This document shows, piece after piece, positions 26,452-63,381 of a stretch of 64,000 nt of DNA. The notes under the pieces were generated by a model. That model did no database searches and was not told the DNA's origin. It saw nothing but the letters and a program-made list of their open reading frames with translations. The stretch's first letter is position 1. The number at the start of each line of letters is the position of its first letter. Source of the stretch: Felis catus. Its lineage: Eukaryota. The DNA lies in NCBI RefSeq assembly GCF_018350175.1, contig NC_058372.1, forward strand, positions 151,404,001 to 151,468,000, in the 5' to 3' direction. Both the position numbers and the translations under genes were made by a program.

Positions 26452-26605
26452 TGTATTAGTCGGCCAGGGCTGCCATAGCAAATACCACAGATGGGCGACT
26501 AGGCAGCAGAAGTGGCTTCCCCCACGGGCCCGGGGGCTGGAGGTCTGAGATCAGGGTGTCGGCGAGGTTGGTTCTCCTGAGACCTCTCTCCTGGGCTTGG
26601 GATGG
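26452..26605 (-). mobile_element. MaLR MLT1-type LTR fragment, antisense
   Basis: tgtattagtcggccagggctgccatagcaaataccacaga...ggctggaggtctgagatcagggtgtcggc. Confidence 0.8.
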
Positions 26606-27492: not shown

Positions 27493-27949
27493 GTGCCCCA
27501 CACCTCTATTCACCTTCTTCTCAAAGGGAAAAGACCGCCAGCTCGAGAGGTACGACCCCGTGTTGTTCCTGCTCCGGATCTCAGGCCGTCCGCAAGGCCC
27601 GTCCGAAGGCAGGTGTGATTTCCACGGCTTCCCCGAGTGCTTGCTGCCAACGTTGTCCTGTAATGCGAAAACGTCGCGTCACGCAAAGTGTCCGAGCTCA
27701 GCTGAATTCTGAAGCTGGTGAAGACTCGGGACAAAATCTAGAAATATCCTCTGCTTTTGAGGAACCGCCGTTCAGGGTCCGAGCTCCGTCAGGACTCCCA
27801 TGAAGGGCCCGGGTCCCAAGGTCCGAGGAGCCTGTGCTCACACGGGAGAGACAGAAGGGACCGCACGCTCCTGGGATTTCGGAAGGTTTTGCAAACCGGA
27901 CGTGCACGTGGAGGGCAGGGTGGCGCAGTGGTCAGAGGCAGGCTCTCTG

Positions 27950-40185: not shown

Positions 40186-41128
40186 CATATGCATGAATAT
40201 GTGTGCACGTGTGTGTCTGTGAGAGCATGTATGTGCATGTGTGCACATGTGTGTGTTTGTGCACGGGTGCGCGTGTATGTATGTGTGTGCACGTGTGTGT
40301 GCACATGCACATGAGTGTGTACACGCATGTGTGAGAGTATGTATTGTGTGCACACGTGCATGTGTGAGCATATATGTGTAGTGAGTGTGTGCACTTGTGC
40401 GTGTGTGAGAGTATGTGTGTATGCATGTGTGTGAGGGCATGTGTGTGCATATGTGCATGTATGAGAGTATGTACGTGTGTGCACATGTGCGTGTGAGCAT
40501 GTGTATGAGTGTGTGCACATGTGCATGTGTGAGAGTATGTACGTGTGTGCGTGTGTGTGAGCATTTGTGTGAGTGTGTGCACATGTGCATGTGTGAGAGT
40601 ATTATGTTGTGCACATGTGTGAGTATGTACATGAGTGTGTGTACATGTGCATGTGTGAGAGTATATATGTGTGTGCACATATGTGAGAGTATGTACATGA
40701 GTGTGTGCATATGTGCATTGTGAGAGTATGTGTGTGCGCACATGTGCATGTGTGTGAGTGTGTGCACATGTGCATGTGAGCATGTGTGTGAGTGTGTGCA
40801 CATGTGTATATGTGAGAGTATGTGCATCAGTGTGTGCACTTGTACGTGTGAGCATGTGTGTGAATGTGTGCATATGTGTGTGAGCGTATGTGTGTGCACA
40901 CGTGTGTGTGAGAGTGTGTATGTGTGTGCACGTGTGTGAGTATGTACATGAGTGTGTGCACATGTGCATGTGTGAGAGTATGTGTGTGTGCACATGTGCA
41001 TGTGTGAGCATGTGTGTGAGTGTGCATATGTGCGTATGTGAGAGTATGCGTGAGTGCGTGCACCCGTGTGCAAGCATGAATGTGCACGTGTGCATGTGTA
41101 AGCATGTGTGAGCCTGTGTGTGAGTGTG
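40186..41128. repeat. TG/TGCA-rich alternating purine-pyrimidine array, ~940 bp
   Basis: Recurrent gtgtgcacatgtgcatgtgtgagagtat units. Confidence 0.95.
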
Positions 41129-43764
41129 TTTACAGCTGAGCTACTTGTGTCTGCCTTGTTTTCCGGGTCCTGGGGATATAGCTCATGAACATCAGAATGT
41201 GCCCGGATGGAGCCCACATGAGCCCGGACCACCCAGCAGGGGCCATGCAAAGTCGTCACCCCTCATCCAAGAGTCCCGGTCTTTTTTCTGGATGCCACTG
41301 GAGCTGTCTGGGCTTCAGCACAAGGGCAGGTGCACCAAGACCCAGGCTGACGGCAAGGGGAGCACCAGGCCAAGAGTCCTGACCGCGACACGGGGACCCA
41401 GCCTGCCCCGCAGCACTGAAGATGGGCAGCGTTCGGTGAGGACCCAGCAGGGCACCCGGGCCACGTCTCCACCCTCAAGAAGCCTCTGAGACACCCTCCC
41501 AGCCCCCAGGGGGCAGCCTGCACGGGGCTCCAAGTGCCGGTGAAGGAGGTAGGTGGTGAGGGTCCTGGGCGGCGGAGGCCCCGGCCCAGCCCCACGGTCC
41601 ACTCAGCTGCGTTTCCATTGAAGCTATTATGTGGGTGTCATCACCTCTAACTGATGGGAAGAGCCCCCCTTCTCCGGCAGCTGCTAATGTGCTTGTCGGC
41701 CTCCCTCCCGCCCCTTGCCCGGCCTTTGTGCGCCTGTGTTTTTCCAAGTCATGGGCTGTTAACCCCTTGAGGCCTCGCAGCCCCGTGGGGCCTCAGCCAG
41801 GCAGCCCGGGGCCCTGGGCCTGCCTGGGGTCGGACGGTGCCTGTCCTGGGAGCAGCTCCGCTGGGAACACCTGGACAGAGGGGGCTCGGGAGGCTCCTGT
41901 GCGCTGAGCGCCTACTGTGTGCCCCACGCTTCCCGCAGGATGTCAGTCATGCTCTTGGTGAGTTTGAATTACCCCACTTCGCAAGCAAGTGCGGGGAGGT
42001 CGGCAGATGTTGAGGAACAGGCCCCCTGGGCTCAGGAACAACAAGCCACAGGTCTGGGACTGTGATGAGCCAGGTGCTCGAGTGCAGGCAAGGCCCGGGT
42101 GTCTGTGATCTGGTCCTGAGCCCTCAGCAGTGGCTCCTTCCCCCGGCCCAGCCCTGGCTGGAATTTACGGCACGAGAAAGCGTTTCTCGTGACCCTTCGG
42201 CAGCGACACCCTGTTAAGCAGACCGGAAACTGGCCGACAGAGAAGCAGGAGGGCCCCACCTGCGCCAGGCGAGCCCAGCCGGCCCTCAGGTGCCCAAGGT
42301 CCCATTGCACTCCGGACAGCCAGGAAGAACCGTGAGGAGCGACGGACACACAACTGGTCGTGCTGCCTCGGGAGGGCGCCAGGGCACCGGAGTGAGCTCG
42401 GACACCACAGGTGAGACCTCCGGGTGCCCGCGGCCCCCTGAGGGTTAGGGTGGGTTGCAGGGGGTTCTGTGCCTGCTTCTCAGCACAGGAAGGGCTCGTG
42501 GAGATCACGGCACTAACACGGAGTTCTCACACCCGCCCACACCACAGCGCAGGGCAAGGGCCTGGCCACCCGCCCCTGACCCCAGGCCCCGGCCTCTGGT
42601 GCGGTCTGCGAGCATTCCCTCGCCCCCGGCTCCTGGCGCGCCAGGCGGATGGCGCGGCTCCGCACGTGAGCGACTTCCCTGAGGGGCGGCCACTTCCCAT
42701 GCTGGACACACGGACGGCACACACGGCTGGGACGACTTCCTGCCGGGCGTAGGGAGTGGTTCTGGCCCCTCTGAGATTTACAGCTCGTGCGACTCCTTCA
42801 TTTGGTCCCCAACCCTCTGCAGTGCGTGGGAGAGACTTTCGTCACACGCTCAGGGCACGAGCGGCCTCCCTGTCGGGCTTGGGCCTTGTGAACCGACTGG
42901 CCGCCGAGCCCGTGTGGGGAGGACTTGGTGAGGCCACAGCCAGCCCGACGAGGCCGAGGGGCAGCCTTGATCTTCGTTCTACCGAAACGCCCCACGCCGG
43001 GGCCACCTGCCACCCCCTTCATTAACGGGCCTTGGAGACCCTCCATCAGGGATCCTCGGTTCACCTCGGCTGAAGGCATCCCCTCCACCGAAGTGATTTG
43101 TGTCTGGGCAGAGGCCCATTTGGAAGTGGGAAAGCCTTGTTTCTGATGTCATTTCTATAAAGGGCTTTGCAGAAACTCATTAGCATGAAGAACAGCAGAG
43201 GCTGGGCTGCTGGCTAATCCATTTTCTTTTACAGCTCCAAAGCTCTTTGCCAGCACAGCAGCATTTATTTTCCCCGAAGGACACATCTCACGCATCATCA
43301 CTGCAAATAAAAATGTGCCTGGTCAGGATCTCCAGCCCTGAGAGCGGAGGGACCCCCAGGTCTGGGTCTGGGGGCACCGTGGGGAGACACAGCCTTGGTA
43401 CATTTGCACACAGTGCTCTGGGGACCGGCTCTGGGGAGCGCATCTCATAGCCTGACCCACCCAGGCAAAGCCCGTGCTGTGGTTTACGGCCCCACACGTG
43501 GCTGGGACCCCCCACAACGTCCGGCTCCGGGTCCTGCCGGCCATCCTCCAAGGACACAGGCCAAGGCTGCCCTGCCCGGGTGACTGTCTTCTCCTGCCCC
43601 CACCCCTGCAGGGGCCCCACTAGGCCTGGAAGCCCTGGCCGTCACCAGCTGAGCTTGCTTGCTCAAGCCTTCATCATGGTGCATTTCAACAGGGACCATG
43701 ATGCAAAGGACCAGGGACCTTGGGGAAAGGCAGGGCCACCACAGTGCTGCACAGATCCTCAGCA

Positions 43765-44390
43765 CCAGGTTGAACGGTGTCCCCCAAAGTCATGGCCCCT
43801 CTGGATCCCAAGCACGAGACCTTTCCTAGAAGTGGAGACATTGCAGATATAGTCAAGATGAGCTCGTACTAGAGTAGGGAGGGCCTTAAATCCCATGACT
43901 TGTGTCCTTATAAGAAGGGGACAGAGGGGCGCCTGGGTGGCTCAGTCCGTTGAGTGTCTGACTTCGGCTCAGGTCATGATCTCCAGGTTCGTGGGTTCGA
44001 GCCCCGCGTCGGGCTCTGTGCTGACAGCTGGGAGCCCGGAGCCTACTCTGGATTCTGTCTCCCTCTCTCTCTCCCCCTCCCCCACTCATGCTCTGTCTCT
44101 GTCTCTCTCAAAAATAAATAAACATTAAAAAAAATTTTTTTTAAAAAGAAGGGGGCAGAGATGCACAGGGAGGGGCCAGGTGACAGTGGAGGCTGACGGA
44201 CAGGTGCATCCACAAGCCAAGACACCACGGCCACTGGCAGCCATCAGCAGCCTGGAGAAAGGTGTAGACTAGACTGCCCACAGAGACACCCTGACAGGGG
44301 ATCCTGCCACAGAACTGGGAGAGAGTAAATCCCTGCCGGGTAAGCCCCACACCCGTCTGTGGCCTGTGCTGCCGCAGCTGTGGGAAACCA
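43765..44390 (+). mobile_element. MaLR MLT1-type LTR interrupted by a Can-SINE
   Basis: gttgaacggtgtcccccaaa...ttgcagat...tgtccttataagaagggg, then after the SINE gtggaggc...ccacaagccaa...cagaactg...gagagtaaat. Confidence 0.8.
43926..44145 (+). mobile_element. Felid-type Can-SINE (SINEC_Fc-like)
   Basis: Full head, (CT)n and aaaaataaataaacatt tail; TSD aagaaggggacaga (43912-43925) / aagaagggggcaga (44146-44159). Confidence 0.96.
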
Positions 44391-47278: not shown

Positions 47279-48001
47279 TCACAGACCTTGTAACAGATTT
47301 CTACCCTTAGAATGAAATAAATTCGCTTTATTCCTCAAGCTGACGTGGCTCCGTGTGCTTGGCCTCTGCCTCCCTGTCAAGCTCCTCACCTGGCCAGTTG
47401 GGGGCTGCCCCTCGTGTGTCCTGTTTTAGGGGCATGACACTCGCCCTGTTCTTGCCCGACGCCCTCCTTAATCAGACGGTCCCTGGTTTGTCCTTTACTT
47501 GAGTCTTGACCAAATATACCTTTCCTTTCGTAGAGAGGCCTGTGCAGAATCCCATAGGACAAGGGCCCCGTCCGCGTTGCCCTCAGGCCCTGCCCACTTT
47601 GTTTCCCTCGGTGGCGCTTCGCCACCACGACTGCACGAACCTCGCACATGCGACTGCGTGTTCCTCGCTCAGATAAGATCTCTGTGGAAGCAGAGCGGTT
47701 GGTCTTTTCCTTCAGTGCCCAGAGGGGTGCCAGGCGTGCAGCAGCATTAAAATGTGCACAGAAAAATGAGTGGATGGAGAGGGCAGTGGAGGGCACCCCG
47801 CGGGCCTGCGCACCCGCTTTCCTCCCTCACCGGGAGCCCCTGTGCCAGCCGTCCCGTGATGGTGGGCCTGGGCCCTGCCTCTCTCTCACTATAGCGGCTG
47901 GTGGCCCTTCTCCTGGCTTTGGGGTCAATATGGCATCGGGTCAGCCTTGTAGGAACTGTCTGGGCGGGAGAAACGGCCTCCCCAAAGGCTAACCCTTGTA
48001 C

Positions 48002-48189
48002 CATTTCCACAGCTGCTCTTAAATGTGCTTTTCATTTCGTTTTAAAAGGCCTGTTAGGGCATTGTTCACAGAAGACCAGTCGGTTATTTAAAACATATTT
48101 GTTGAAGACTGGCCACTGTGTAACTAGACATATATCATTTGCAGAGAAAAACCTCAGGAAATGTGTTTCTTATAAGCAATTAGTATTAA
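48002..48189 (-). pseudogene. Exon L candidate (188 nt, phase 1->0): NTNCL*ETHFLRFFSANDICLVTQWPVFNKYVLNNRLVFCEQCPNRPFKTK*KAHLRAAVEM
   Basis: Strong acceptor ttattattctcttcag; only two stops in 62 AT-rich codons; donor gtacaa weak. Confidence 0.35.
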
Positions 48190-49169
48190 CTGAAGAGAAT
48201 AATAACTCTCATACTAAATTAAAATGTAACACATGCATCGGGGACTTGCGTGTCCCTCTGGAGCGGTGGTAAGGTCCCTCTGCTGCCTTTCCAGCCCAGC
48301 ATGCCCGCTCCCCGGGGCTCGCCAGCCGCTCCTGAGGGGCGGCGTGGACGTGCTCGGGGCCCACAGCCCTTTGGCCATGGACTCAGGTGAGGACCCTGTC
48401 GGGGGGCAACCTTGAGCGAGGGGGACACACGTCCCTTGGCCATGCTGTCCCATCGGCCATCCTTGCTGGAGATCAAGTGTTTGACATAAAAGGGATGCGC
48501 TTTGGAATCTCGGAAGGATAACTCAGGTCGTTCCCAAGACGACTTCCCTCCACCTCCCGATTCCTGCCACAGACTGCTCGCTTCAGCAGGCTGGTGCCCC
48601 CACCACACACGCCACCGACCACACAAATACACATTTATACACATCGTGTGCATCGTGACATAGGCCACGCACATGCATACACACCACGTTCCACACACAC
48701 ACAGATGCGTTCATGGACACACACACGAACAAAGACCCAGGGCAGCCCCAGGCATGTAAAAGGGTATTCATGTCTCCTGGTGATCAGTCGGGTTGCTGTG
48801 TACACATTAATTCTTCCTTCTGGCCACGACCTAGGGCTGGTAACAAGTCTGGGTTGTACGACCGGCAGAGGACAGACTGTCATTCTCAGCCTTGTGTTAA
48901 ACTCTTCGGGACCGAGCTGCGCCTTACTGTCTCTCCAAAACTGTCACGCGGATGCTGTGCTGTCCTCAGATAAAGTAGCTTTTGTTGAACACCTGCCTTG
49001 GGTTAAACACTATTTTAATAATTTTATACGCATTGTTCCGTTTCGTTTGTCTCAATGGCTTTTAGGAAGAGGGAGCTGGTGCTGTGGCCTTCCGGCTAGC
49101 CCTGCTGCACACAAGCACCCACGCTCCAGGCTCTGGACAGCCCGCCTTTCAGGACAGACGGCTGGTATA

Positions 49170-49661
49170 ACTCACGGAATTATCTAGAGAATTTTTTGGT
49201 TCCGACAACGACCTTGCCGTTGTGAATGTGAATGAAGTTTCTCTGAAACATCCCATTTACTCTTCTGACTCTGATTTTGCAAATGGGAAAATCGTGTCAC
49301 AAGGGGAGAGAGGCACAAATAGAATTTGATTGTCGGGTTACTGGTTTTCTGGTTTCGGGATGGTTCACGGCATTTAGCTAGCCCACCTGCTTTCTCCCCA
49401 GAAGCTTCCCTGCTGCGTCGCCTCTGTGGTCGACACTTTCCCCGTAGCGGGGTATGGGTGTGTCGGAAAGGGAAACCAACAGCTTCCCTGCCTCGCCGAG
49501 AGGAGAGTCTGCGGTGAGGTCACCCGCTCTCGGCAGAGGGCTTCCCCCCATCACCACTGGGAGCTGGTGAGTGTGCGCGGGGGATAGGACACCATTCTAA
49601 ACGTTTCCAAAGAGGTCCGCAGAGTGAGGCAAATCCCGCTGCCAAGATGGCGTCACATACA
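49170..49661 (-). pseudogene. Exon K candidate, large and degraded (phase 1): YVTPSWQRDLPHSADLFGNV*NGVLSP...
   Basis: Long polypyrimidine acceptor cattctctctttgtctttgaag; stops at 49597 and downstream; 3' boundary unknown. Confidence 0.3.
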
Positions 49662-49719
49662 CTTCAAAGACAAAGAGAGAATGACATTCTGCACGACGAC
49701 GCGCTTCATGAATGTCCCC

Positions 49720-50290
49720 AGACTGCCCTCCTTCCTCCCATGTGACCTTCCAGACCACCGCATCCTGACTCCCGCCTGGACCACCACAGTCACCTTTACT
49801 CAGCCTTGACACAATCCCATCTGCCCTCCTGTGTCAGGACCCCTCGCCTGGGCCGTCTCAGCCTGGAACAGAACCTGTGAGGCAGCGTGCAGCCCCTTGT
49901 GACCTCTCTGCCCTCCTGGACTCCCGTGGTCCTGGCACCTATGGGCCTGGGTGCTCACTGCACCCAGCTGAGCTCAGCTCTGCGTCCAGCCAGGGCCTCT
50001 CACCACCCAGGAGCCCCTGGCTCCCCAGGGCGACTCAGCTCAAGTGTACCTCTTCCAGGAAGCCTGTCTCAGCTCCCAGACATGGGTCCTCAGTGTCCCC
50101 ACAACATCTGGCCCACGCCCCATCGCAATACTTATTGTGTCATTGTTATTATTATTTACTTGTCGGTTTTCACCTCCAGAACGTGAGCCCATCAAACTCA
50201 GGGTCTGCAGTTCATTTATGTTTGGCCAAGGAGCTAGCCCTATTCAGCAAGTCATAGACGCTTGAGCAGCATTTGCTGAATGGAAGGAGT
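49720..50290 (+). mobile_element. LINE-2 3' region relic (in the predicted J-K intron)
   Basis: cagctcaagtgtacctcttccaggaagcct ... ccagaacgtgagccc ... gcatttgctgaatgg. Confidence 0.7.
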
Positions 50291-50335
50291 GGCTGCCCTG
50301 GCTAATCCCGCTGGAGGGCTATCCTCGAGACTCAC

Positions 50336-50419
50336 TTAATGGCTGTCCTCATCCCGGTTTTAAAGAAAATGGTTTGTAATCCCAAAGGCCTCTGTGTGTT
50401 CTTATATTTTCCTCAACAC
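50336..50419 (-). pseudogene. Exon J candidate (84 nt, phase 1->1): VEENIRTHRGLWDYKPFSLKPG*GQPL
   Basis: Acceptor ctattaatctcag, consensus donor gtgagt; TGA at 50349-50351. Confidence 0.45.
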
Positions 50420-50770
50420 CTGAGATTAATAGCAGGCTGGGAGGGCACTGGGGTGCTGGCTGTCACCAGACTGTGATGGCGACCCCACCCACTCCCGGTA
50501 GAGACACGGGCGCCCGCCCTGTCCACCCACACGAGTGTGCCGGCCAGCGGGGCCCTGCTCCGCCACGGCCACGCTCAGGCACGAGGCAGGGAGCGCACGG
50601 AAGGCGGAGGCAGGGCTGAGGTGCGGTCCTAGCCAGGAGCACCGCGGCGGTGGCCCCGCTACTCTGCCCTGAAGAATGAGCCCCAGCGCCCCTACGGTTC
50701 CTCAGGAACTAGGAGAAACCTGACTTGGGGGTGGGGAGAGGCATGGTGCAGGCCACAGACGAGAAAAGAC

Positions 50771-50840
50771 CTTGGGTTTTTAAAACCTGGCATCGAAATC
50801 TGCGGCGGTTAGGGTGCGATGCAAAACCCGGGACCGGAAC
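50771..50840 (-). pseudogene. Exon I candidate (phase 0->1): VPVPGFASHPNRRRFRCQVLKTQ
   Basis: Acceptor gtgcctctgcag; donor weak (exon end 50771, or alternatively 50720; both phase 1). Confidence 0.3.
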
Positions 50841-51407
50841 CTGCAGAGGCACCGAGGCCTCGAGTCAACTACCAGGACACTGAGGCACCGTGGCCCTTTG
50901 GGGCCTCTTCTGGTCACCCCAGAACTCAGTCCAGGCCACAGCTGTGGGGACGGAGAGGAGATGGGTGGGGCAGAAAGGCAGCCTGGAGGCCGGGCACCGT
51001 GGCCCCTCCCTCCCGGGGTCCGGCGTGGGGGCTCCACGCTGGCCACACTGGTGGGCGTCAGAGCCCCAGGCTTGGGCAGGGCCGGGCGGGCAGCAAGGGG
51101 TCAGCCCTGGGAGCTCTCGGGAGGGGTCACCATGACAGGAGAGGGTTCGGGGACACAAGTGGCCAGGCTGTGGCCCTGTGGGAATCCCCCACTGTGTTCC
51201 TAGGGATTGTGTGGAGCCGTCTGTCTGATGTCTGGGCCCCGCGGGCCGTCCCGGCGTCCAGGGCCGTGTTAGTTACTTCTGTTCCTCCAGAGACAGAGCA
51301 CAGGGCCCCGAAGCAGGAGACGCCGGGTGGAGGGGGGCAGTCCCCACCGCCTCGCCAGGACTGCCTGCGGTTAGACTCTGCCGCGCTAGGAAGACCGCCA
51401 GACAAAC

Positions 51408-51662
51408 CTCTGGAAGGAAGAAACCAAAACGTTCCTTCAACCTCAGAAGTGGCTTTTGCTCGTTTTGTGTTTCCTGGCCAGGGTTCAGAGGTGAAAGGTC
51501 AGGGTCTTTCATCCGCCTCTGCTTCTCATGATGCCCTTGAGAAAGAACTTTGGGACTATTTTAGAACTTGATAAAACCTCTTGGGTTTTGAGTTCTGGAC
51601 TGATCAGGGATATTTTGGAGTTTGATCTGGTTTATTCTCAAGAGAAAACAAACTTCAGTTTC
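51408..51662 (-). pseudogene. Exon H (255 nt, phase 0->0): ETEVCFLLRINQIKLQNIPDQSRTQNPRGFIKF*NSPKVLSQ...KPLLRLKERFGFFLPE
   Basis: Acceptor tttatttcaaaacag, donor GAG|gtttgt; a single TAA (51561-51563) in 85 codons. Confidence 0.5.
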
Positions 51663-51954
51663 CTGTTTTGAAATAAATTCTTTCATACACTTGACAAGGA
51701 CACTCAGAAAACACACTGAGCGCCATGGAGATGTCTTGAGGAAGTGTGCAGACCGGCCATCCACGGAGCGCCCTGCTCTGTCCCCGCATTCTGGTCCGAG
51801 CAGATGGGGAAGGGCAGCAGAAGTGCCGTCCGAACTGCGGTCCGCGCACCTCCGCAAAGGGCCCCTTGCGGCTCAGGATGGCTTGTCAGGCCGGCCGGCC
51901 GCTCCCCCCTCGTGGAGCAGCTGTGGCTGCTGTGGGCCCTTCGTTCCACTCCGT

Positions 51955-52050
51955 CTTCAAACAGCCTATCAGGTCCGGGGGGTCAAGCCCATTTTAGAGA
52001 TGAGGAAACTGTGTCCCAGAGGCTGGGCGAAGGCAGTGCCGGAGGACCGG
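51955..52050 (-). mobile_element. MIR relic
   Basis: cccattttagagatgaggaaactgtgtcccagagg. Confidence 0.65.
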
Positions 52051-52564
52051 TGCGCCCCATGTGAAACACGACGGTCTCTGCCTTCTGTCCCGGAGCGGCA
52101 TGGCCTTGTCCCCAAGGAGGCAGGTGCAGTGGGAGCAGCGCTGACCGCCATCCGCACCCTCCTTCGTGCACCTGGGGCCTGGGGGGGCGTCCCGGGAGCG
52201 AGCCGAGCGCACCCGAGTCCACCTGTGGCTGGAGCCCAGCACGGTCAGTTGTTCAGACGCCCACTCGGCGTGAGTTACTGGAAATGGCCACAGGGGAAGG
52301 ACTGAGATGGGTCTTAGAAACGGAGCGTCGTCTGCTGCGTTTAGATACGAAGTAAACGTGGGTTCCCTGAGCTTTTGCTTCCGTTGCATCAACACACAGG
52401 AGCACGCCGTCTCCACCCTGGCCGGTGCTCAAGCACAGCAGAGACCGTCCCTGCCACCCCATCGCTCCCACCCCACCCAGAGCGCGAAGCAAAGACCAAG
52501 CTCGTTTGTCGCACAAAAATCTGTGAACGCGGCACCGTGCAAGTGTGCATACGTGGGCCTTTAC

Positions 52565-52643
52565 CCGGAAGCTGGCGTTCGACTCCCAGTATTTTGTTAG
52601 CTCTGCTCGTGGGATGGCCAAAGGTGTGGGTGTGATGAGAATT
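52565..52643 (-). pseudogene. Exon G candidate (79 nt, phase 2->0): ILITPTPLAIPRAELTKYWESNASFR
   Basis: Acceptor cccgttcacag, donor CGG|gtaaag, open frame. Confidence 0.45.
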
Positions 52644-52800
52644 CTGTGAACGGGCACTCCCGCGTGAACAAGGGCAGACTGTACTTAAGTTCTCAATTTT
52701 CCTGTTTCACTTTTATTCTCATTTTACTACTCGAAGCATCGTTTCTTGTCTGCTTAATACAGTAAATAAATTGGGGACTTGTACTTTTCATGTCTTTGTA

Positions 52801-52974
52801 TTTTCTTTTATTTATTTATTTTTTTTCAATATATGAAATTTATTGTCAAATTGGTTTCCATACAACACCCAGTGCTCATCCCAAAAGGTGCCCTCCTCCA
52901 TACCCATCGCCCACCCTCCCCTCCCTCCCACCCCCATCAACCCTCAGTTTGTTCTCGGTTTTTAAGAGTCTCTT
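52801..52974 (-). mobile_element. Felid-type LINE-1 (L1_Fc-like) 5'-truncated 3' end
   Basis: aatatatgaaatttattgtcaaattggtttccatacaacacccagtgctcatcccaaaaggtgccctcctc...aaccctcagtttgttctc matches the cat L1 3' UTR in antisense, with a T-rich tail. Confidence 0.9.
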
Positions 52975-54119
52975 GTTTCTGCGTGGCTTGCGTCATATTT
53001 TACATGAACATCAATGGGCAGGAGTTGAAATGTTCGATGTCTTTCCTCACGAGAGGCAGAGAGGTGGCCGAGGTGGCTCCGGCAGTGGGGACCTGGGCCC
53101 GGCCCCAGGACACAGGACGGGGTTGTGTGTCTGAGTCGAGGCCCATGACACGCGGCCGCAGCTCTGGGACCTGACGCCTGGGAAGCGACACCAGGTGCCA
53201 CTGTGTCTCCACAGAAGGCCGAGCCCTCCCCCACCTCCCTCTGCGAGCCGAGCCACGGTGGGGCCCCTGCCTTCCCTCATCTGTGGTGGGTCCAGAGGCC
53301 TCACTGGATGGCGTCGTGCCCCAGATGGAAGGTCAAGGACCTAGTGCCCGGTCGTTTCTGCCGCCTCTTCAGGTGTTGCCTGGCTGGGAGACAGCCTCAT
53401 TCCAGGACGGGAAATGTCTACCGCCCCAGGCCTGAGCTCCAGAAATAGCCTTGGACAGTCGGAGGCAGGGGCGAGAGGGGCAGAGCTGGGCTTCTCCTGC
53501 TCAGGCTGCCTTCCACTGCCCCGCGGGGATGTGCCGAGAGACACGCCAGGCGCTCCAGAGAGAGAAGGAGACAGAGGGAGGGAGGGAGGGGGGCGGCAGG
53601 GGAGGGGGAGGAGGAGGGAGGGGGCCACTCAGAGGACAAATTCCATCAACCTAATCTGGGGTGGCCCCGCCTGTGTGGACACGCCCTCAGAGCAAACAAG
53701 GGTCCTGTTGTGAACACGGGCGACCCAGTGCCCTGCAGCCTGAGCCCGGCCTGGTGGCCTCCGGGCGGAGGACACGCATCGCGCTGCCCGATCCTTAGAA
53801 GTCCAAGGAGGGCCTGCTGGCCGTGGGCAGCGCTGCCTCGAGTCGCGGCTTTCATGAAGTTGCCTGTGAGAGAATGGTGGGGCGGCCTCGCTGCACAGAT
53901 GGCTCTTTGTCCCCGCTGACACCTGCCATCTGCTTGTTTGTCTAAATGATGCTGGAGGGGCAGGGGGCTCCCAATCTGCTGCCCGGGCCCCTCCCGCCTG
54001 CAGCGACCTCCTGACCCCTGGGCCAGACAGGTCCACAGAGTTTGTTCGCTCAGCACGGAGGATGCTCTGTTCCCCGAGGCCCAGCCTCTCCTCAGCACTG
54101 GGGCTCAGTGCCCGGACAG

Positions 54120-54640
54120 CGCAGCAGGAGGAGGAGGAGGAGGGGGGAGAGACGAGGGGAGAGGGGAGGGGGAGGGTGGAAGTGGAGGGGGAGGGAGGGA
54201 GAGAGGGAGGAGGGGGAGGGAGGGAGAGGATGGGGAATAAGGGAGGGAGAGGAGGAGGAGCAGCACAGCAGCAGGAGCAGCAGGAGGAGGAGGAGAAGCA
54301 GGAGGAGAAGCAGCAGGAGGAGGAGCAACAGGAGGAGGAGGAGAAGCAGCCTCATGAGGAGCAGCTGTAGGAGCAGTAGGAGGAGGAGAAGCAGCAGCAG
54401 GAGGAGAAGCACCAAGAGGAGGAGGAGGAGCAGCAGGAGGAGGAGAAGCAGCAGCAGGAGGAGAAGCAGGAAGAGAAGCAGCAGCAGGAGGAGCAGCACC
54501 AGGAGGAGGAGCAGCAGAGGAGAAGCAGCAGGAGGAGGGGCAGCAGGAGGAGGAGAAGCAGGAGGAGAAACAGCATCAGGAGGAGAAGCATCAGGAAGAA
54601 GAGCAGCAGGAGGAGCAGCAGCCGCAAGAGGAGCAGCTGC
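54120..54640. repeat. Compound (GGA)n/(CAG)n triplet array with GA-rich lead
   Basis: gaggagaagcagcagcaggaggag units; yields poly-E/Q, R/S and antisense poly-L ORFs. Confidence 0.95.
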
Positions 54641-54652
54641 ATGTAGCCTCAC

Positions 54653-54713
54653 GGGCCCTCCCACTTCGAGGACTAGGCTGGACGCTCTCGCTTCCCGGGT
54701 GCAGCCCTCACGC
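54653..54713 (-). pseudogene. Exon F candidate (61 nt, phase 2->0): REGCTREARASSLVLEVGGP
   Basis: Strong acceptor cattctcttccttaacag, donor gtgagg. Needs an extra 0->2 exon (possibly 53923-53951), or skipping, to join exon G. Confidence 0.3.
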
Positions 54714-55609
54714 CTGTTAAGGAAGAGAATGTCACACGAGGAGGAGTGTGTGGGGACAGAACTTACCGAGAAAAAGCTGGAGCCCCCTCCAGGTCAGAGG
54801 GCCGCGGCCACGGGGACTGGGGCTGGCGCCATCCCTGTTTCTTAACAGGTTTGTGAGGTGAGGAAAGTTCCAGTCTCTACCCAGCATGGGGAGCATTCCA
54901 GAAACCCAAGCCAGTAGTGCTGGCTAGGAGCACTCCGTGTGCGTTGTCCCAACTGACCCACGGGGGCCACGTCACCAGTGAGGCGGCCACGGCTCTGCAG
55001 AGGGTGCACTTTTTAGGACCCCACCCCCGTCCCCAGGCTAGGGGATGCAAAAGCTCACGGCCCCACGTCAGCTGTGGGACCACTAACTGTCCAGAAGTAG
55101 CGTGAGTCCCTTAAATCAGGCAGCATCTTTGTGCTACAGGCCCATACTATCCCCTGCTCCCGAGAGGTGGCCCAGAACTGCCCCGGTCCCAGGGCCGGGA
55201 GCTGAGACCTTGAAAAGCTTACATCTGCAGCCCCGCCCACAGGTGGCCACGGTAAGCCACGGCGCCCGCTCTGCCCTTCCCCAACGAGCACAAGCTTGAC
55301 ACGCACAGTTTCTCAGACCACAGAGGAGTAAAATAACTCCCCTGAGGTTGGGAAGAAGGGTGCAGCCTGGCTGGCCCACCTCACACGCTGTCCCTGTGAC
55401 AGGCACAGAGCCCTGGTCATCCCTTTCCCTGAGGAGAAGCCCACAGCGGAGCAGGCAGGCGCGCACAGCTAACGGCCGATGCCCACACTAATGCTGACAC
55501 TGACACTGACAAACCTTCTGGGGGAAATGAGCTAACTGAGCTCAGACAGGGCTCAGAGCTAACTGAGCTCAGACAGAGTGGATAAGGCTGCACAGAGGAT
55601 GCACTGACC

Positions 55610-55720
55610 TTGCTCACATCCCTATGAAGTAGGCATTATTTTCTCTCTCGTTTGTCTTAGGAAGAGGCAGAGAGGTGAGTAGCTCACCCAGGGAGGCTCG
55701 GGGCTGCCAGAGCCAGACGC
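55610..55720 (-). mobile_element. MIR relic
   Basis: ctcacatccctatgaagtaggcattatt...gaggcagagaggtgagtagctcacccagg. Confidence 0.55.
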
Positions 55721-55795
55721 GGTCACCCACGTGGCCAGGGGAGCTGGGCCTCGTCGCCCCACATGCAACTCGCGCCTGACTTTCGACGTCTTTAC

Positions 55796-56021
55796 CTAAT
55801 CATAGGTCCGTTTGCTTTTCCTTTAATTACATCTTACTGTCGGTGTTTATGGAGGTGTCCCTGAGGTGTGCCTTCGGCGTGCGTCACAGGCCGCAGAAGC
55901 TCGGGTCATTTGCAGAAGCCCCATGGCAGCTTCGTTCCCAGGTGGAACCCGTGCGCAGGTGGGCAGTGGACACCTGTCCCGCACCAGGACAGGGACGCGT
56001 TGGAAAGTGTGGGGAGCTCGC
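55796..56021 (-). pseudogene. Exon E candidate (226 nt, phase 1->2): ELPTLSNASL...FCK*PELL...HRQ*DVIKGKANGPMI
   Basis: Acceptor ccctttacag, donor AG|gtaaag; stops at 55906 and 55834 (an alternative phase-2 donor gtaaga coincides with the latter). Confidence 0.35.
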
Positions 56022-56131
56022 CTGTAAAGGGCTCAGACATGAGCCCTGTTGCCATCCAACCAGCAGGGCTCGTTCTGTGGATTTGTTGGAAACGGGTTGG
56101 GTGGGACATTCGATGGCACACGTTTACTCAC

Positions 56132-56276
56132 GGGTCTTCCTACTCTGAGTGCCTAGGACGCGTCGGTCGTCTGGGACCCAGAGCGTTAATGAGGAGGTCG
56201 GGCTGGTGTGCTGGCCGCCTACGGCTGCCTGTCTAAGAGCTGGCTCAAGGGAGAGATCCCTTCCCGGAGAATCAGG
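56132..56276 (-). pseudogene. Exon D candidate (145 nt, phase 0->1): PDSPGRDLSLEPALRQ...GTQSRKT
   Basis: Acceptor ttcttgtcctatttaag, consensus donor gtgagt, open frame. Confidence 0.4.
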
Positions 56277-56844
56277 CTTAAATAGGACAAGAATTGGATG
56301 GCTCGGTGTGAGGCCACGTGTGAGCCTTCTCGGGGTCGACTCCGGAGGAAAGAGCGCATCTTTGTGGGCGGCAGTGGGGCTGGTAGAAGGCGCAGACGAG
56401 CCCCTTGGACTGATCACAGCGGGAAAGGTGCCGTTGAGGCCGGCGCTCCCGTGAGACCCCAGGCTCGGAACAGCGCACTGGCCGGGGCCCTCGCACCTCT
56501 GGACCCCCAGCGGCCGGAAGAGGAGCAGACATCGCGTCTCACGTCCTCAGCGCCGACCGCTGTGGCTCCACACAAAAGTGACAAGCCACTTTTTCCCGAA
56601 TTCATCAGCGGATGGAAAACGCTCATCACAAGGAAGCTCTTGCTTACTCAGCATCTTGGCTGCCGCTTCCCGGGAGCCACGCGTAGCCCCACGCCTCCCA
56701 CGCTTCGGCACTGTCGGTCCTCACGGCCCTGCCAGGTGGCCTGCCACCTCTCCATTTCTCGGGCAGGGGGTGTGGGAACATGAACAGGATGAGCCGGAGG
56801 CCTCTGGGTAGAAACGAGAGTGTTTGGACCCGAGGTAAACGTAC

Positions 56845-57270
56845 CTTGAGGACTCACGTGTGTCCCTGCGGAGGAAAAGGGACACAAATCGTCTCAGGAG
56901 CAGTACGCTGACTTTGCGGTGTGTAATCCAAAAATCCTGTGTGTTCGAGAAAGCCCTCAGACTTCAAAGCTGAGGTGTGTTATGTAGTACTCTCAGTTAA
57001 TTACACGCCTTGAAATAACTCTGTGCAAGAGTTCAGAACGTCCAATATTCCCAGGAGCTCCGGGAACAGCAGTACCGGAAATCTGTGGGACCCATCCGCT
57101 CGGGGTGTGGGTTAACGCTCCTTCCCCTCACTGGGGCCAAGACTGGAGCGTCGTGAGCGCTCTGCCGGGGCCCCACCGTCGCCCAAGGTAACGCCTTGGC
57201 CCTCACCGAGGCCAGCCGCGGCCTCGCAGCTGACCCTCCCCAGGGCCCTGCTTTCCTCATCGACGAACAT
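56845..57270 (-). pseudogene. Exon C candidate (426 nt, phase 0->0): MFVDEESRALG...PFPPQGHT*VLK
   Basis: Acceptor cgctttcctgtcag, donor AAG|gtacgt, length divisible by 3. Four in-frame stops (57112, 57001, 56980, 56854), so the coding signal is weak. Confidence 0.3.
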
Positions 57271-57579
57271 CTGACAGGAAAGCGTGTTTGTGTGGGCCGT
57301 TCCAGGAGCACAGGCCAAATCATAGGCTGCCGTGTCAGCCAGAGCTGGGAACACAGAGGCTATTTTGGGGAAGGCAGCCACGTGCCCGCCTTCTGCTTGC
57401 AAAGACGCGTGTACCACACACAGCCACAGAGGCACGCGAGGTCGTGGCGCCCACCTGGAGGGAAGGCAGAGAGCCGGCGGAAACGGCCGGAAGCTCGGGC
57501 CCTTCCTGGCTCCCACAGCCCGGGTCTGCACCCCGCCTGGCACGCACCCCAAGCCCGCCAGCCGGTCCTGCCCTTCCCC

Positions 57580-57808
57580 AGCCGTCGGGACCTCCCCGGG
57601 CCGGGCCTCCCTCAGTCCTCAGACTCCACACTTCCACGATCTGCTCCCACCATTTTTTCCGCAGTTCCCGCTTAACACAATATTTATTGTCTTTGTTCTG
57701 TTTCTGCTCTGTCTCCCAACCGCAGCGTGATTTTCTCAAGAGCCAGGATCCTATTTCGTGCACATATGCCTGGCACAGCTCGGACATCAATGAATATGCG
57801 TTGAACAA
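57580..57808 (+). mobile_element. LINE-2 3' end relic (in the predicted B-C intron)
   Basis: ctgtctcccaacc...tgcctggcacagctcggacatcaatgaatatgcgttgaa. Confidence 0.65.
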
Positions 57809-57865
57809 AAGACCCGTGATGACTCAAGAGCCCGTCCTTGTCTTTTTATGAAACCACGTCTTTAC

Positions 57866-58030
57866 CCAAGAATAAAAGACATTTGGATTAAAATGCTCCT
57901 TGAGTTTTTCCATGCTTGGGCTCTCGCAAGATCATTGTGCTACATTTTGGATGACCCACTTTTCCTTCTCAGGCCTAAGACACCAAGAGCCTATTGTAGA
58001 GACAGGGCTATGAATTAATCTTTCCATTTG
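57866..58030 (-). pseudogene. Exon B (165 nt, phase 0->0): QMERLIHSPVSTIGSWCLRPEKEKWVIQNVAQ*SCESPSMEKLKEHFNPNVFYSW
   Basis: Acceptor ttgtattctattttcag, donor TGG|gtaaag; one in-frame TGA at 57932-57934. Confidence 0.6.
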
Positions 58031-59474
58031 CTGAAAATAGAATACAACCGAAGTGAAATGTCTAAGAAGTCGCTGGTGACCAGGACAATGTCGTTAATCT
58101 CGTTTGCATTTGCAGTGAAGTGTTTCCAACTGGCTTTATACCAATTACTTATGTTTACGGCAGATCATAGAGGGTGTGTTTCACACAGAAAACCACACAG
58201 AATACGGTGTCTGCCCAGCCCAAGGACGGTGGTGGCGGGGAGTGACTTGTTCTCGTGGGAAGCGAGAGACCAGCCGACCAGAAGGAGCTGGGCCGTGTGG
58301 CCCGATGGCGGCAGGAAGCACGGCGCGTCAGCTGGAGCGCGGGGCCTCCTCTCCGCCACGTAGCCTGGCTCCACACCCGTCCGTCCAGAGCCTTAGCTTC
58401 AGGACACAGGGCCTTCACGGGCCCCGCCGTCACCCGCTGCACTGAGGCAGCCGCATGGGGCATCCCGTCAGGTTTGGAGCTCTGCCAGGAGCCGCTAGGA
58501 AGACCAGAGGCACAGGGTGTGTTTCCTTACCCTCAGGAAGCTTACGATCTAGGCTGAAGACACCTGCACTGGGCCCGAGGAGGGGTGTGGGTCCAGCCTG
58601 AGCCTGGCAGGTAGGGAGAAGAAAGGGTCGAGCGCAGCCACGGGAGGCCTGACAGAGCAGCGGGCCGCACCCACGGCTGCAAGGGTGAGGTGTGGGGGCT
58701 CATGGCATCACCACAAAGGCAAGGTCGTGGGGCTCTGGAGAAACAGAGGAACGCTAAGGAGGACGTGGGTGCCACGCAGGAAGGGCTCTAGGCCAGGAGG
58801 CGCGGGGCGCTGAGGCCTCGGCCGGGCCTGGACATGGGGCCGCGAGGGCAGGCTCCGCAAGAGCTCAGCCGGCAACACCCCTGGGACGTGTGGGCGGTGG
58901 GGCCATGGCCAAGGGACCTGCGGGGACAGCGGCACGGACGGGGAGTCTGGGCCCCAGTGCGGCGTCCCCCACGCCCGGAGGCAGGACAGCAGCCTGTCAG
59001 GGAGGCCACGTCAACACTGACCGGGCCCCAGGAGCCACGCGGGGCAGACCTGCTTCTCCCCGCAGCCTGGCAGACCCCAGCCTCCCCCTGCAGGCCCCGT
59101 GCTGCCCTCCGCGGCCCCTGCCCGGGCTCACCGACGGCCGGCCGTTTCTCCGTCCCTGCCGTGAGGCGCACACGCGTCCCACACGGAACTCGGCCGTAGG
59201 GTGGCCGGTCCCTGGCTCTGGGGTCACGGCAGCCGCGGCTGTGAGTGCTGTGACCGTCCCCGTGGGCTGCTGCATCGGGCAGGGACGTGTCACGGGCGCC
59301 TCTCGGTGCCTTCTCAGTGTGTGTGTCACAGGCCCCCCTTCTGTGCCCTTCGGAACACGACTCAGGAAGACGGTCGGTTAGCGGGCCGGACGAACGTGTG
59401 TGGCTGTCCCCAAACCCACTGGCTGCCCAGGCCTCGGAAATTGGTGCCGGGGATATCAAGATCTCTGCACTTAC

Positions 59475-59568
59475 AACCAAACTCATAATATCAGTTAAGT
59501 TGCTTAAAGCAATACTAGGAATTACTGTTAATTCTTCACCCAATATAAGAAAGCTTTTGATGAGAAGC
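59475..59568 (-). pseudogene. Exon A (94 nt, phase 2->0): LLIKSFLILGEELTVIPSIALSNLTDIMSLV
   Basis: Acceptor ccattttcttatctag, consensus donor gtaagt, no stop despite AT-richness. Confidence 0.65.
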
Positions 59569-60079
59569 CTAGATAAGAAAATGGATTGTATATAATCTTT
59601 TAAATGTTAAAAACACTATTTTAACATATATTAAATGTATAATGTGTATTTTTTAAAGACTTGGAACTATACATCCGTGATGTATGCAAACATCTGGGTG
59701 AAATTATTCTTTTCGATTAATTTCTGAGTCAGTGTAGAGGCCCTTAAAGCCCCACAGACAAGCACACGTTGTCACCCAGAGTGCAGCTGAAACACCGCTT
59801 CCCCCGTTTGCTCCGATGGTGTTTGTCCCCCGCGCCTGGGCTTCTGCCCACGGTCCTGCGGGGCACACGGTGAGACGAACAGATGGGTCGTAGAATATGT
59901 GCAATTTAAATTCAGGCAGGGGTGCTAAATAAACGCCTGTTCCGTCCTACGTGCCACCTTCTGAAAGAATTTGTGAGACGCAGCCCCACTGTGGCTGGAG
60001 ACCGCATGCGTCCTGTCCTCCCGGCCCAGAGGGAAATGTGAGTTTTCCACGGCGGTCTCCTGACCTCCTGGGAGGGGGG

Positions 60080-60927: not shown

Positions 60928-61192
60928 ACACCCCACAGAGGACCCCACAGAGCACACCAAAGAGGACCCTGCAGAGGAACCCCGCAGAACAACCCCGCAG
61001 AGGAACCCGCAGAGAAACCAGCGGAGGAACCCTCCAGAGGAACCCCACAGAGGACCCCACAAAGGAACCCCACAGAGGAACCCGCAGAGAAACCAGCAGA
61101 GGAACCCTGCTGAGGAACCCTCCAGAGGAACCCCACAGAGGACCCCACAAAGGAACCCCACAGGGGACCCCACAGAGGAACCCGCAGGGGAA
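60928..61192. repeat. Minisatellite, 12-13-bp unit (agaggaaccccac)
   Basis: About 20 units with a higher-order 75-88-bp duplication. Confidence 0.93.
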
Positions 61193-61849
61193 ACTGCAGG
61201 GGAGCCTGAGCGGCTCAGTGACCCACGGGGCCCCACCCAGATCCCCCATCAGCAGGTCTGCCGTACCTGCAGACCCTCTGCCTGGCGAGGGGGCAGACAG
61301 ACAGACGTGCAGACCACCAGAAGGGAGATGCGTCCCTTGATGGGAGGCAACAGTCATAAGTGTCCAATCCCGTGCCCTGGAAGTTTTCGTGTGCACTTAG
61401 GGCAAAGTGCTTGCTGCCCTCCTGGTGAGTTGTGTCCGGTCCTGCCCACTGGAGTGAATGCAAGACACGGGTGCCCCAGGACCCTCACCTCCCCGTTGGG
61501 CAGCGGGGGGCTCCGGGCCCAGGACACTCACCCCACGGCAGGTGACCCGCCCCCTGTGCACAGGCAACCCAGGCTGGCTGCCTCTCCCTCCTCGCGGCAC
61601 TCAGCACTGCCGGGCCGTGTCTGCGGGCGTTGGAGGGGGGCTGAGCTACAGGGGTCCACGGCAGATGCGCCCCACCTCTGTGCGTTTTCTGGTTGCGTTT
61701 CATTTTGGCCAACTAGTCTGTTAACTAAGAATTAGTATTGCAGATGTCGCTGGCTTCTTCATGACAATGGACAGTGACTTCCTTCCCCTGCCTGGGACAG
61801 GGATGAACAATACTGCGGTCTCTTTGGATCAGTCCAGACACGCCCCTGT

Positions 61850-62372
61850 GCTGAGGTGACCTGGCATCGTCCCCAGGTCCCTGTGCCAAGCTGACCCAGC
61901 ATGGTCCCCAGGCCCCATGGGAGGTGACCCAAAGTGGTCCCCAGGCCCCATGTGAGGTGACCCAGTGTGCAAGGTGACCCGACATGGTCTCCAGGCCCCA
62001 TGCAAAGCTGACCCAGCGTGGTCCCCGGGCCCTTTGCGAGGTGACCCAGCGTGGTCCCCAGGCTCCACGTGAAGTGACCCAGCGTGGTCCCCAGGCCCTG
62101 TGCGAAGCTGACCCAGCATGGTCCCCAGGCCCCATGTGAGGTGACCCAACATGGTCCCCAGGCCCTGTGGGACGTGACCCTGTATGCAAGGTGACCCAAC
62201 ATGGTCCCCAGGCCCCGTGCGAAGCTGACCCAGCATGGTCCCCAGGCCCCACGCGAGGTGACCCAGTGTGCAAGGTGACCCAACATGGTCCCCAGGCCCC
62301 GTGTGAAGCTGACCCAGCATGGTCTTCAGGCCCCATGCGAGGTGACCCTGTGTGGTCCCCAGGCCCTGTGCC
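61850..62372. repeat. Minisatellite, 33-34-bp unit (gtgacccagcatggtccccaggccccatgtgag) with 17-bp half units
   Basis: About 14 full units plus gtgacccagtgtgcaag inserts. Confidence 0.95.
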
Positions 62373-63169
62373 AGGATGACCACATCATGACAGGCCAACC
62401 AGGGAGACCCTGGCTCATGTCCCCTGGCCAGTGATGTCTTCCTACCCAGACCCACCTTGGGTCACTGCACTAGCCTGAGCTTCCCCTCCAACCTCCTGCG
62501 TGGCTGTGGCCAGACTGGTCCAAGCTTCCCCACTGCCCACATGTCCCCTGCCGCCCCACCAGACGCCCTGGCCCACAGAAGCCATGAAACCAGGCCCTCA
62601 CCCTGGATCACCTTCTTCCCCTGATACTTCCAGGTCACCTTCCCAATTACCCATAATGCCGAGTGCTCCGGGCCCCGTCCACTGTTGTGGCCCGAGGGCT
62701 GATAGGAACGACCGTGCAACGACCGTGCTCACCCTCAACCACCGGCCACCTGCCAAGGCGGAGACCCCGAGCGGTTTCTCTGCGCCTGATGCTTCAGCAG
62801 TCCGGACCCGGGCGGGGACAGGCCAGGACGGTGGAACGGCAGGGTGTCTGCCCCGGGCAGAAGGACCCGCCACTGGGGTCGTCTCTGCTCCTGTGGCCTC
62901 GCCCCCCACAAAGCGCCTGCGAGTGTTCCTTGCCCTTGAGGAGCTCTTGGTTCTCACCACATTTAGGCAGTGGATGTGCTTCCCAGTCGACCTTTCTCTG
63001 GGCGATTCTGTGCCTGCTGTTGGCTCCACCCAATGTCCCCCGGGACCACACACCCAGAGCGCCGGCCTTCTGGCTGGGAGGGCAGCTCCCCACGTGTCCG
63101 CTGTTCCACTATACGTTCTGTTGTTGTCCTGTGGGACTCCCCCTGGGAAGGTGAGAGCTGCCTTATAAA

Positions 63170-63381
63170 TTTTTTTTTCTTAATGTTTATTTATTTGTGT
63201 GAGAGAGAGACAGAGTGTGAGCAGGAGAGGGGCAGAGAGAGAGGGAGACATAGAATCGGAAGCAGGCTCCAGGCTCTGAGCTCTCAGCACAGAGCCCGAC
63301 GCGGGGCTCGAACCCACAGCCCGTGAGATCATGGCCTGAGCCGAAGTCAGACGCTTAACCGACTGAGCCACCCAGGCGCCC
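63170..63381 (-). mobile_element. Felid-type Can-SINE, antisense, perfect TSD
   Basis: Full-length; identical flanks tgagagctgccttataaa at 63152-63169 and 63382-63399. Confidence 0.97.

What the first reader, a model, noticed from the sequence alone, without database searches (positions are those of the whole stretch)
48002..59568. Hidden multi-exon gene relic on the minus strand: candidate lineage-specific gene loss
Seen: about 10 segments with AG/GT boundaries whose phases chain without frameshift (A 59475-59568, B 57866-58030, C, D, E, G 52565-52643, H 51408-51662, I, J 50336-50419, K), with L further downstream. Junctions read as protein, e.g. LLIKSFLILGEELTVIPSIALSNLTDIMSLV|QMERLIHSPVSTIGSW... 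and ...KYWESNASFR|ETEVCFLLRINQ...RLKERFGFFLPE|VPVPGF. All recognisable L2/MIR/L1 fragments lie in the predicted introns. The ORF track misses it because the exons are short and stop-interrupted. Inference: an intron-containing gene inactivated by nonsense changes. I cannot name the protein, so it may be an uncharacterised gene. Caveat: exons were picked by hand, and C, E, I and K are weak.
Basis: partly seen in the sequence, partly recalled or inferred. Interest (0 to 1): 0.7.

Follow-up and report, generated by a model that had tools for sequence, protein, structure and literature searches.

The report
Possible orphan gene fossil near DLL1
In a cat-family genome, the gene desert between ERMARD and DLL1 holds about ten AT-rich, exon-like pieces that are likely the remains of a long-dead gene matching no known protein, but the pattern barely beats chance and the data lean against a loss special to cats.

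Summary
The five segments given with coordinates (A, B, G, H, J) exist as described: AG before, GT after, 3 stops in 224 codons, phases that fit. The locus lies 0.5 Mb from a chromosome end, between ERMARD and DLL1. The phase chain is not evidence: an equally good chain is built on the opposite strand and in 36 of 40 other windows, and stop scarcity is not significant (p 0.06-0.31). No annotated protein, Pfam family or structure matches, although the collection holds annotated carnivore proteins. Two comparisons were found. (1) An unannotated ORF from another mammal matches exon B (64%), no better than its flanks (68%), and lacks the donor GT. (2) Exon A with about 360 bases of flank has exactly one old copy, upstream of ABCG2; against it the window turned 48% of A/T into G/C just after the donor but 12% inside the exon (p 3.5e-5), a footprint of past constraint ending at the splice site, without a third-position excess. 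No spliced reads in 4 weak runs. Best reading: an old, nameless gene fossil, dead beyond cats (0.42); constrained non-coding elements are nearly as likely.

The parts
59475..59568 (-). Segment A: best-supported candidate exon, 94 nt, phase 2 to 0, open over 31 codons, 31% GC
   Evidence: acceptor top 1.5%, donor top 4% of local sites by a crude matrix; A/T-to-G/C step at its donor
59314..59775 (-). About 460-bp element (A plus about 200 nt upstream and 160 nt downstream) with one diverged copy at G000:C11:132435597-132437502, just upstream of the ABCG2 CpG island; that copy is broken by L1 and SINE insertions, a stop and a 13-nt gap
57866..58030 (-). Segment B: candidate exon, 165 nt, phase 0 to 0, one TGA; orthologous genomic ORF P0001 reads Arg there
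56913..57020 (-). Candidate C (my placement): 108 nt, phase 0 to 0, two stops, fits an AT-rich island; weak
52565..52643 (-). Segment G: 79 nt, phase 2 to 0, open; weak acceptor (top 23%), 53% GC
51408..51662 (-). Segment H: 255 nt, phase 0 to 0, one TAA; weak acceptor (top 18%); two antisense frames score as well as the chain frame
50771..50840 (-). Candidate I: 70 nt, phase 0 to 1, open; weak
50336..50419 (-). Segment J: 84 nt, phase 1 to 1, one TGA, good splice sites
49555..49661 (-). Candidate K: 107 nt, phase 1 to 0, one stop; weak
49176..49270 (-). Extra candidate M: 95 nt in an AT-rich island; its frame does not follow from K; weak
48928..49009 (-). Extra candidate N: 82 nt, one TGA; weak
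48002..48213 (-). Candidate L: 212 nt, three stops in its best frame, 33% GC
48013..48268 (+). Rival plus-strand exon-like segment over island L: AG/GT, open over 84 codons
57973..58173 (+). Rival plus-strand exon-like segment over island B: the best-scoring island candidate of the region, one stop
52728..52979 (.). Young L1 3' end, between candidate exons
   Evidence: family name recalled

Best explanation
These segments are likely the fossil of an old spliced gene on the minus strand, probably protein-coding, that no longer makes a protein and was likely dead already in at least one other mammal lineage. Shown: the segments, their splice dinucleotides and stops, the place between ERMARD and DLL1 near a chromosome end, the single old copy of the exon A region beside ABCG2, and the sharp rise in A/T-to-G/C change at the donor of A. 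Inferred: while the gene lived, selection kept its exons and acceptor-side intron ends AT-rich while GC-biased gene conversion drove the rest of this subtelomeric stretch to about 60% GC; a 460-bp piece was copied between this locus and the ABCG2 upstream region early, which preserved the old AT-rich state; the gene later died by nonsense, splice-site and probably frameshift changes, leaving AT-rich islands. Speculative: a candidate first exon 5.8 kb upstream of A (ATG in a good context, strong donor, phase fits A) would give a basic stretch followed by the hydrophobic stretch of A, as in N-terminally anchored membrane proteins.
For: 5 of 5 given segments have AG/GT and 3 stops in 224 codons. 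Against the ABCG2-side copy, A/T became G/C at 6 of 49 sites in exon A and 36 of 75 sites after the donor (p 3.5e-5); the intron-only homology is real (0 of 2000 shuffles, 0 of 2000 random pieces); both copies keep AG and GT. Island edges carry minus-strand donors more often than plus-strand ones (4 of 10 against 0 of 10; 6 of 10 against 0 at a looser setting, p 0.016). Minus-strand island exon scores exceed the local null (p 0.02-0.03; plus strand p 0.26). For A, B, G and J the best of the three sense frames is the chain frame, and for H too. The segments are single-copy and the A element has just two copies, so they are not a common transposon. Dead elsewhere: in P0001 the codon over the donor of B reads Ile, which cannot begin with GT.
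Against: No annotated homologue: B 1 unannotated hit among 3 candidates, H 0 among 1.84 billion representatives and 0 candidates at 46-149 aa, L 0 of 4 candidates; no Pfam family over its cut-off; no PDB match. B is no more conserved than its flanks (35 of 55 against 60 of 88 residues, p 0.59). Differences in exon A fall 7 of 23, 5 of 25 and 5 of 25 on codon positions 1, 2, 3, so no third-position excess. The 200 nt upstream of A resisted GC change almost as well as the exon (25 of 130, p 0.38 against the exon), which is long for a splice signal. Phase chains are trivial to build, stop scarcity is not significant, and an ORF-blind test favours the plus strand (p 0.004) and not the minus strand (p 0.73). 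No joints in 4 of 4 runs laid. Few stops point to a young loss while the lack of annotated orthologues points to an old one; this tension is unresolved.
Confidence: 0.42

Rival explanations
1. The AT-rich islands are constrained non-coding elements (for instance enhancers in the DLL1 desert) or exons of a non-coding RNA, and the protein reading is pattern-picking.
For: No protein homologue; no codon-type conservation in either comparison; resistance to GC change extends 200 nt upstream of A; a 29-nt core is nearly identical in both A copies, third positions included; chain and stop tests are at chance. That deserts beside developmental genes hold enhancers is recalled knowledge.
Against: The GC-change step falls at a good GT donor; the strand bias of donors at island edges is not expected of enhancers, though a spliced lncRNA would give it.
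Confidence: 0.33
2. One reading: a recent, cat- or feliform-specific loss of a gene that is intact but unannotated in other mammals.
For: Only 3 stops in 224 codons and no frameshift inside A, B, G, H, J; the TGA in B is Arg in P0001; the word searches need three shared 5-residue words and stop at 2000 aa.
Against: The collection holds RefSeq and UniRef proteins of felids and meerkat, yet B, H and L find no annotated protein; a full HMMER scan with H found none; P0001 lacks the donor and shows flank-level divergence.
Confidence: 0.12
3. Neutral DNA: patchy GC-biased gene conversion left AT-rich remnants, and the step at the donor of A is a coincidence.
For: Similar islands and exon-like segments occur all along 264 kb; most intrinsic tests are at or near chance.
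Against: Sharp step at the donor; weak minus-strand bias.
Confidence: 0.08
4. A relic lies here but on the plus strand (48013-48268 open over 84 codons; 57973-58173).
For: Islands are stop-poor on the plus strand (p 0.004); the two segments have good acceptors and donors.
Against: Other islands lack plus-strand splice sites; island A has no plus-strand acceptor; no Pfam or own-genome hit; test is post hoc.
Confidence: 0.05

Closest known systems
Unitary (unprocessed) pseudogenes found by comparative annotation, e.g. the 44 added by Mudge et al. 2019 (PMC6886504; passages and Supplemental Data S3 part 1 of 2 read, S1 and the held part of S6 searched)
   Same: Single locus, exon-like pieces with splice sites and stops, no intact paralogue in the genome.
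   Different: Those have a coding orthologue in another species and a PhyloCSF signal; here no orthologue was found and the two pairwise tests show no codon signal. The only chromosome 6 row in S3 is at 30 Mb, and the held 2,131 rows of S6 have no chr6 169.7-170.2 Mb row.
lncRNAs and pseudogenes that are fossils of lost coding genes (Hezroni et al. 2017, PMC5577775; passages read, 4 supplements searched)
   Same: Old relic in a desert, little sequence similarity left, possible overlap with enhancers.
   Different: No pair anchored on DLL1, C6orf70/ERMARD, FAM120B, LINC00574 or LINC00242 in its tables; no transcript shown here.
Low-copy ancient interspersed or duplicated elements
   Same: The A region has a second copy on another chromosome at 54-77% identity.
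   Different: Exactly two sites match its core with up to 3 mismatches in the whole genome, and no other segment has a copy in 200 kb around the second site.

Membership tests
Unitary pseudogene | Exon-intron structure with splice sites in compatible phases | tested here: inconclusive
   Present but not beyond chance as a chain; step at the donor of A supports one boundary
Unitary pseudogene | Disabling changes in the inferred frame | tested here: met
   Stops in B, H, J and in C, K, M, N, L; conditional on the frame being real
Unitary pseudogene | No intact paralogue in the same genome | tested here: met
   Only self hits for B, H, L, A as protein; the one DNA copy of A is broken; search sensitivity is limited
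Unitary pseudogene | Intact coding orthologue in another species | tested here: not met
   None among annotated proteins (control); unannotated or very distant orthologues are out of reach
Unitary pseudogene | Codon-type conservation in alignments | tested here: inconclusive
   No signal in two small pairwise comparisons, in each of which one side is dead; no multi-species alignment on hand
Lineage-specific (felid) gene loss | Intact in the nearest outgroups | tested here: not met
   The one outside sequence (P0001, species not known) lacks the donor of B
Processed pseudogene | Exons joined, no introns | tested here: not met
   Segments lie 0.2-4 kb apart; the second copy of A includes both flanks
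Common interspersed repeat | Many copies in the genome | tested here: not met
   2 sites for the A core; self only for the other islands
Spliced lncRNA | Spliced transcripts over the segments | tested here: inconclusive
   0 joints in 4 runs of unknown tissue over 48000-51981 only
Conserved non-coding element or enhancer | Conservation across mammals without codon pattern; enhancer chromatin | not testable with these tools
   No multi-species alignment or chromatin data available

The most novel reading that the evidence does not exclude
The ERMARD-DLL1 desert once held a gene of at least 11 exons for a membrane-anchored protein of no known family, missing from every annotation searched; it may still be intact and unannotated in some mammals, marsupials or reptiles, and one of its exons was copied next to the ABCG2 promoter.
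Probability: 0.15. Interest if true: 0.6.

Novelty: new member of a known kind. Interest (0 to 1): 0.3.

Why it matters
If real, it is an unrecorded vertebrate gene in a well-studied region (human 6q27 by synteny) whose product has no family, and it shows a way to find such fossils: AT-rich islands left standing in GC-converted subtelomeric DNA, with an old duplicate as a clock. As it stands it is an unproven fossil with no function to test, so the interest is modest. It is also a caution: hand-picked AG/GT phase chains arise anywhere in such DNA.

Tried and rejected
Pfam: 0 of 4, 0 of 30, 1 of 27 at E 0.11 under its cut-off, 1 of 17 at E 0.19 under its cut-off. PDB: none (one search used the wrong frame of L). 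ESM Atlas: no usable feature hit for residues 33-89 of P0001, structure rows all under TM 0.5; no Atlas result for H or L. Metagenome scans: 200 pattern matches, none confirmed; one match, L030, has no DNA similarity to the window and is chance. Plasmids: no match. Rfam: two tRNA hits, both heads of SINEs. One search included a SINE and returned only repeats. A piece at 64218-64460 (window-equivalent) that seemed colinear with the second copy is an LTR-type repeat that scores higher elsewhere. Recalled look-alikes (leucine-rich repeat in A, G8 or C2 domain motifs in M and L, APOBEC, NT-C2) got no Pfam support and were dropped. Runs with a small share of words that I did not lay (X7-X10, X12, X13) are not used. 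Paper searches: ERMARD+DLL1+pseudogene gave 1 clinical paper, ERMARD+DLL1+synteny 0, C6orf70/DLL1/gene loss and LINC00574/LINC00242/DLL1 nothing on a lost gene (listings only); the supplement of PMC10195156 had none of 6 terms. Coordinate terms could not match the colon format and are no test. Splice matrices and amino-acid frequencies in my scripts are recalled approximations.
Full report
Place. The window is G000:C13:151404001-151468000, on a contig of 151.96 Mb, so about 0.5 Mb from its end. A DUF4209 exon (the ERMARD family; name recalled) lies at 151244571 and a DSL exon whose best PDB match is Delta-like protein 1 at 151636057. C6orf120 lies at 151186775 and is letter for letter the protein annotated for Felis catus and Prionailurus. 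The genome is thus of the cat subfamily and the finding sits midway in the desert between ERMARD and DLL1, syntenic to human 6q27 (inferred). The window is 49-65% GC per 2 kb.

Observation. All 5 segments given with coordinates are there, with AG and GT, 3 stops in 224 codons and fitting phases for A-B and G-H. By a crude matrix, A and J have good sites on both sides, B fair ones, G and H weak acceptors. I placed candidates for C, I, K, L and two more, M and N; H-I-J-K chain, K to M does not, D and E I could not place. A possible first exon lies outside the window, 5.8 kb upstream of A (L001:1386-1438, minus): ATG with A at -3 and G at +4, a strong donor, and a phase that fits A. It was picked by hand and its composition score is poor.

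Chance. AG/GT-bounded, AT-rich, stop-poor segments are no denser here than elsewhere in 264 kb. A chain finder with splice and stop scores gave 148.9 on the minus strand, 177.9 on the plus strand, and 36 of 40 other strand-windows scored as high; with a higher exon cost 65.9, 88.0 and 35 of 40; 3 of 60 block shuffles reached the real score in each. Against base shuffles the chain frames of B, H and L looked protein-like (best of three frames p 0.032, under 0.001, 0.038; A 0.066, J 0.052, G 0.20; I, K, M, N 0.58-0.90), but two antisense frames of H scored as well, and against dinucleotide shuffles the stop counts of five chains gave p 0.057-0.31. An ORF-blind test on the 10 AT-rich islands found the plus strand, not the minus strand, poor in stops (p 0.004 against 0.73). 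For the minus strand speak the donors at island edges (4 of 10, plus 0 of 10, elsewhere 59 of 274, p 0.16; p 0.016-0.64 over 12 settings) and the island exon scores (p 0.02-0.03), both post hoc. The sequence alone therefore gives a hint and no more.

Homologues. B found 1 hit among 3 candidates of 98-2000 aa: P0001, an unnamed 148-aa ORF on a 566-bp contig. It aligns through B and on into both flanks, so it is genomic DNA of another mammal called as an ORF, not a spliced protein. Identity is 35 of 55 in the exon and 60 of 88 in the flanks (p 0.59); the TGA of B is Arg there, and the codon over the donor is Ile, so the GT is gone. Its open frame is no independent evidence, since the search selects for it. 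H found nothing in a full HMMER scan of 1.84 billion representatives or among proteins of 46-149 aa; L found 0 of 4 candidates. Pfam and PDB gave nothing over a cut-off. As a control, the collection holds RefSeq, nr and UniRef proteins of cats, big cats and meerkat (9 of 9 members named), so an annotated mammalian orthologue would likely have shown. Orthologues at bird or reptile distance, proteins over 2000 aa and unannotated genes stay out of reach.

The second copy of A. DNA searches of the own genome gave self only for B, for 47980-49360, 50300-51760 and 55700-57500, but two places for A. The second lies on C11 just upstream of a CpG island, between PPM1K and ABCG2. It covers window 59775-59314, flanks included, and is split by an L1 and SINEs, with a stop and a 13-nt gap. 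AG and GT are present in both copies. A 29-nt core with up to 3 mismatches occurs at just these 2 sites in 2.43 Gb, which excludes a common repeat; none of 11 other candidates has a copy in the 200 kb around it. Taking the AT-rich C11 copy as nearer the old state (inference), the window changed A/T to G/C at 36 of 75 sites after the donor, 6 of 49 in the exon and 25 of 130 in the 200 nt upstream (exon against 3' side p 3.5e-5; exon against 5' side p 0.38). The homology of the 3' intron alone is real (0 of 2000 in two nulls). GC-biased gene conversion favours G/C over A/T where recombination is high (PMC3744432, start of abstract seen). So the island is a remnant that resisted conversion, and its 3' limit is the donor. 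Yet the differences within the exon are spread evenly over codon positions, and the resistance runs far upstream, so an enhancer-like element ending by chance at a GT is not excluded.

RNA. Of 24 runs listed I laid 4, on 48000-51981 only: a polyA run gave 4 reads under 90% alike, a single-cell run 0, two contig sets 4 and 3 short unspliced pieces, one of which runs from H 16 bases into the upstream intron. No joints. Tissues are unknown and 1-2% of the raw runs was read, so this is a weak negative; the A-B and G-H junctions are untested.

In print. The searches named under Tried and rejected found no report of a lost gene here. In Mudge et al. 2019 (PMC6886504) the unitary pseudogene table has one chromosome 6 row, at 30 Mb, and the held, cut part of the candidate table has none at 169.7-170.2 Mb. 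Hezroni et al. 2017 (PMC5577775) list no pair anchored on the flanking genes; their table of lost genes gives ids without positions and could not be checked. PMC10195156: supplement searched, 0 hits. PMC3296468: listing only.

Verdict. The most likely reading is an old gene fossil on the minus strand with no annotated living relative, dead in at least one other mammal as well (0.42); constrained non-coding DNA or a lncRNA 0.33; a recent cat-side loss with an unannotated intact orthologue 0.12; neutral remnants 0.08; a plus-strand relic 0.05. It works like a unitary pseudogene but fails the membership test on the intact orthologue. Interest 0.3.

Noticed in passing
L001:1386-1438 minus (window-equivalent 65386-65438): Candidate first exon: ATG in a good context, strong donor, phase 2 fits segment A; hand-picked.
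   Followed up: partly
G000:C11 about 132434770-132434940 and L043:6020-6185: A near-identical direct repeat of about 170 bp flanks an 8-kb stretch holding the copy of A and the ABCG2 CpG island (seen by eye).
   Followed up: no
G000:C11:132372583-132373074 minus: 164-codon open stretch with decayed C2H2 zinc-finger-like motifs beside a CpG island near PPM1K.
   Followed up: no
window 48013-48268 plus: AG/GT-bounded stretch open over 84 codons at 37% GC; no Pfam or own-genome relative.
   Followed up: yes
window about 58790-59610 minus: The frame of segment A stays open for 272 codons through GC-rich DNA; likely a GC effect.
   Followed up: no
window 54205-54665, 60939-61214, 61852-62381, about 26600-27500, about 40200-41150: Several minisatellites and low-complexity tracts (CTG/CTC-rich; 12-13-nt unit; 33-34-nt unit; C-rich pentamer-like; CA-rich).
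   Followed up: no
window 63293-63377 and 43931-44015: Rfam tRNA hits that are the heads of carnivore SINEs (SINE identity recalled).
   Followed up: partly
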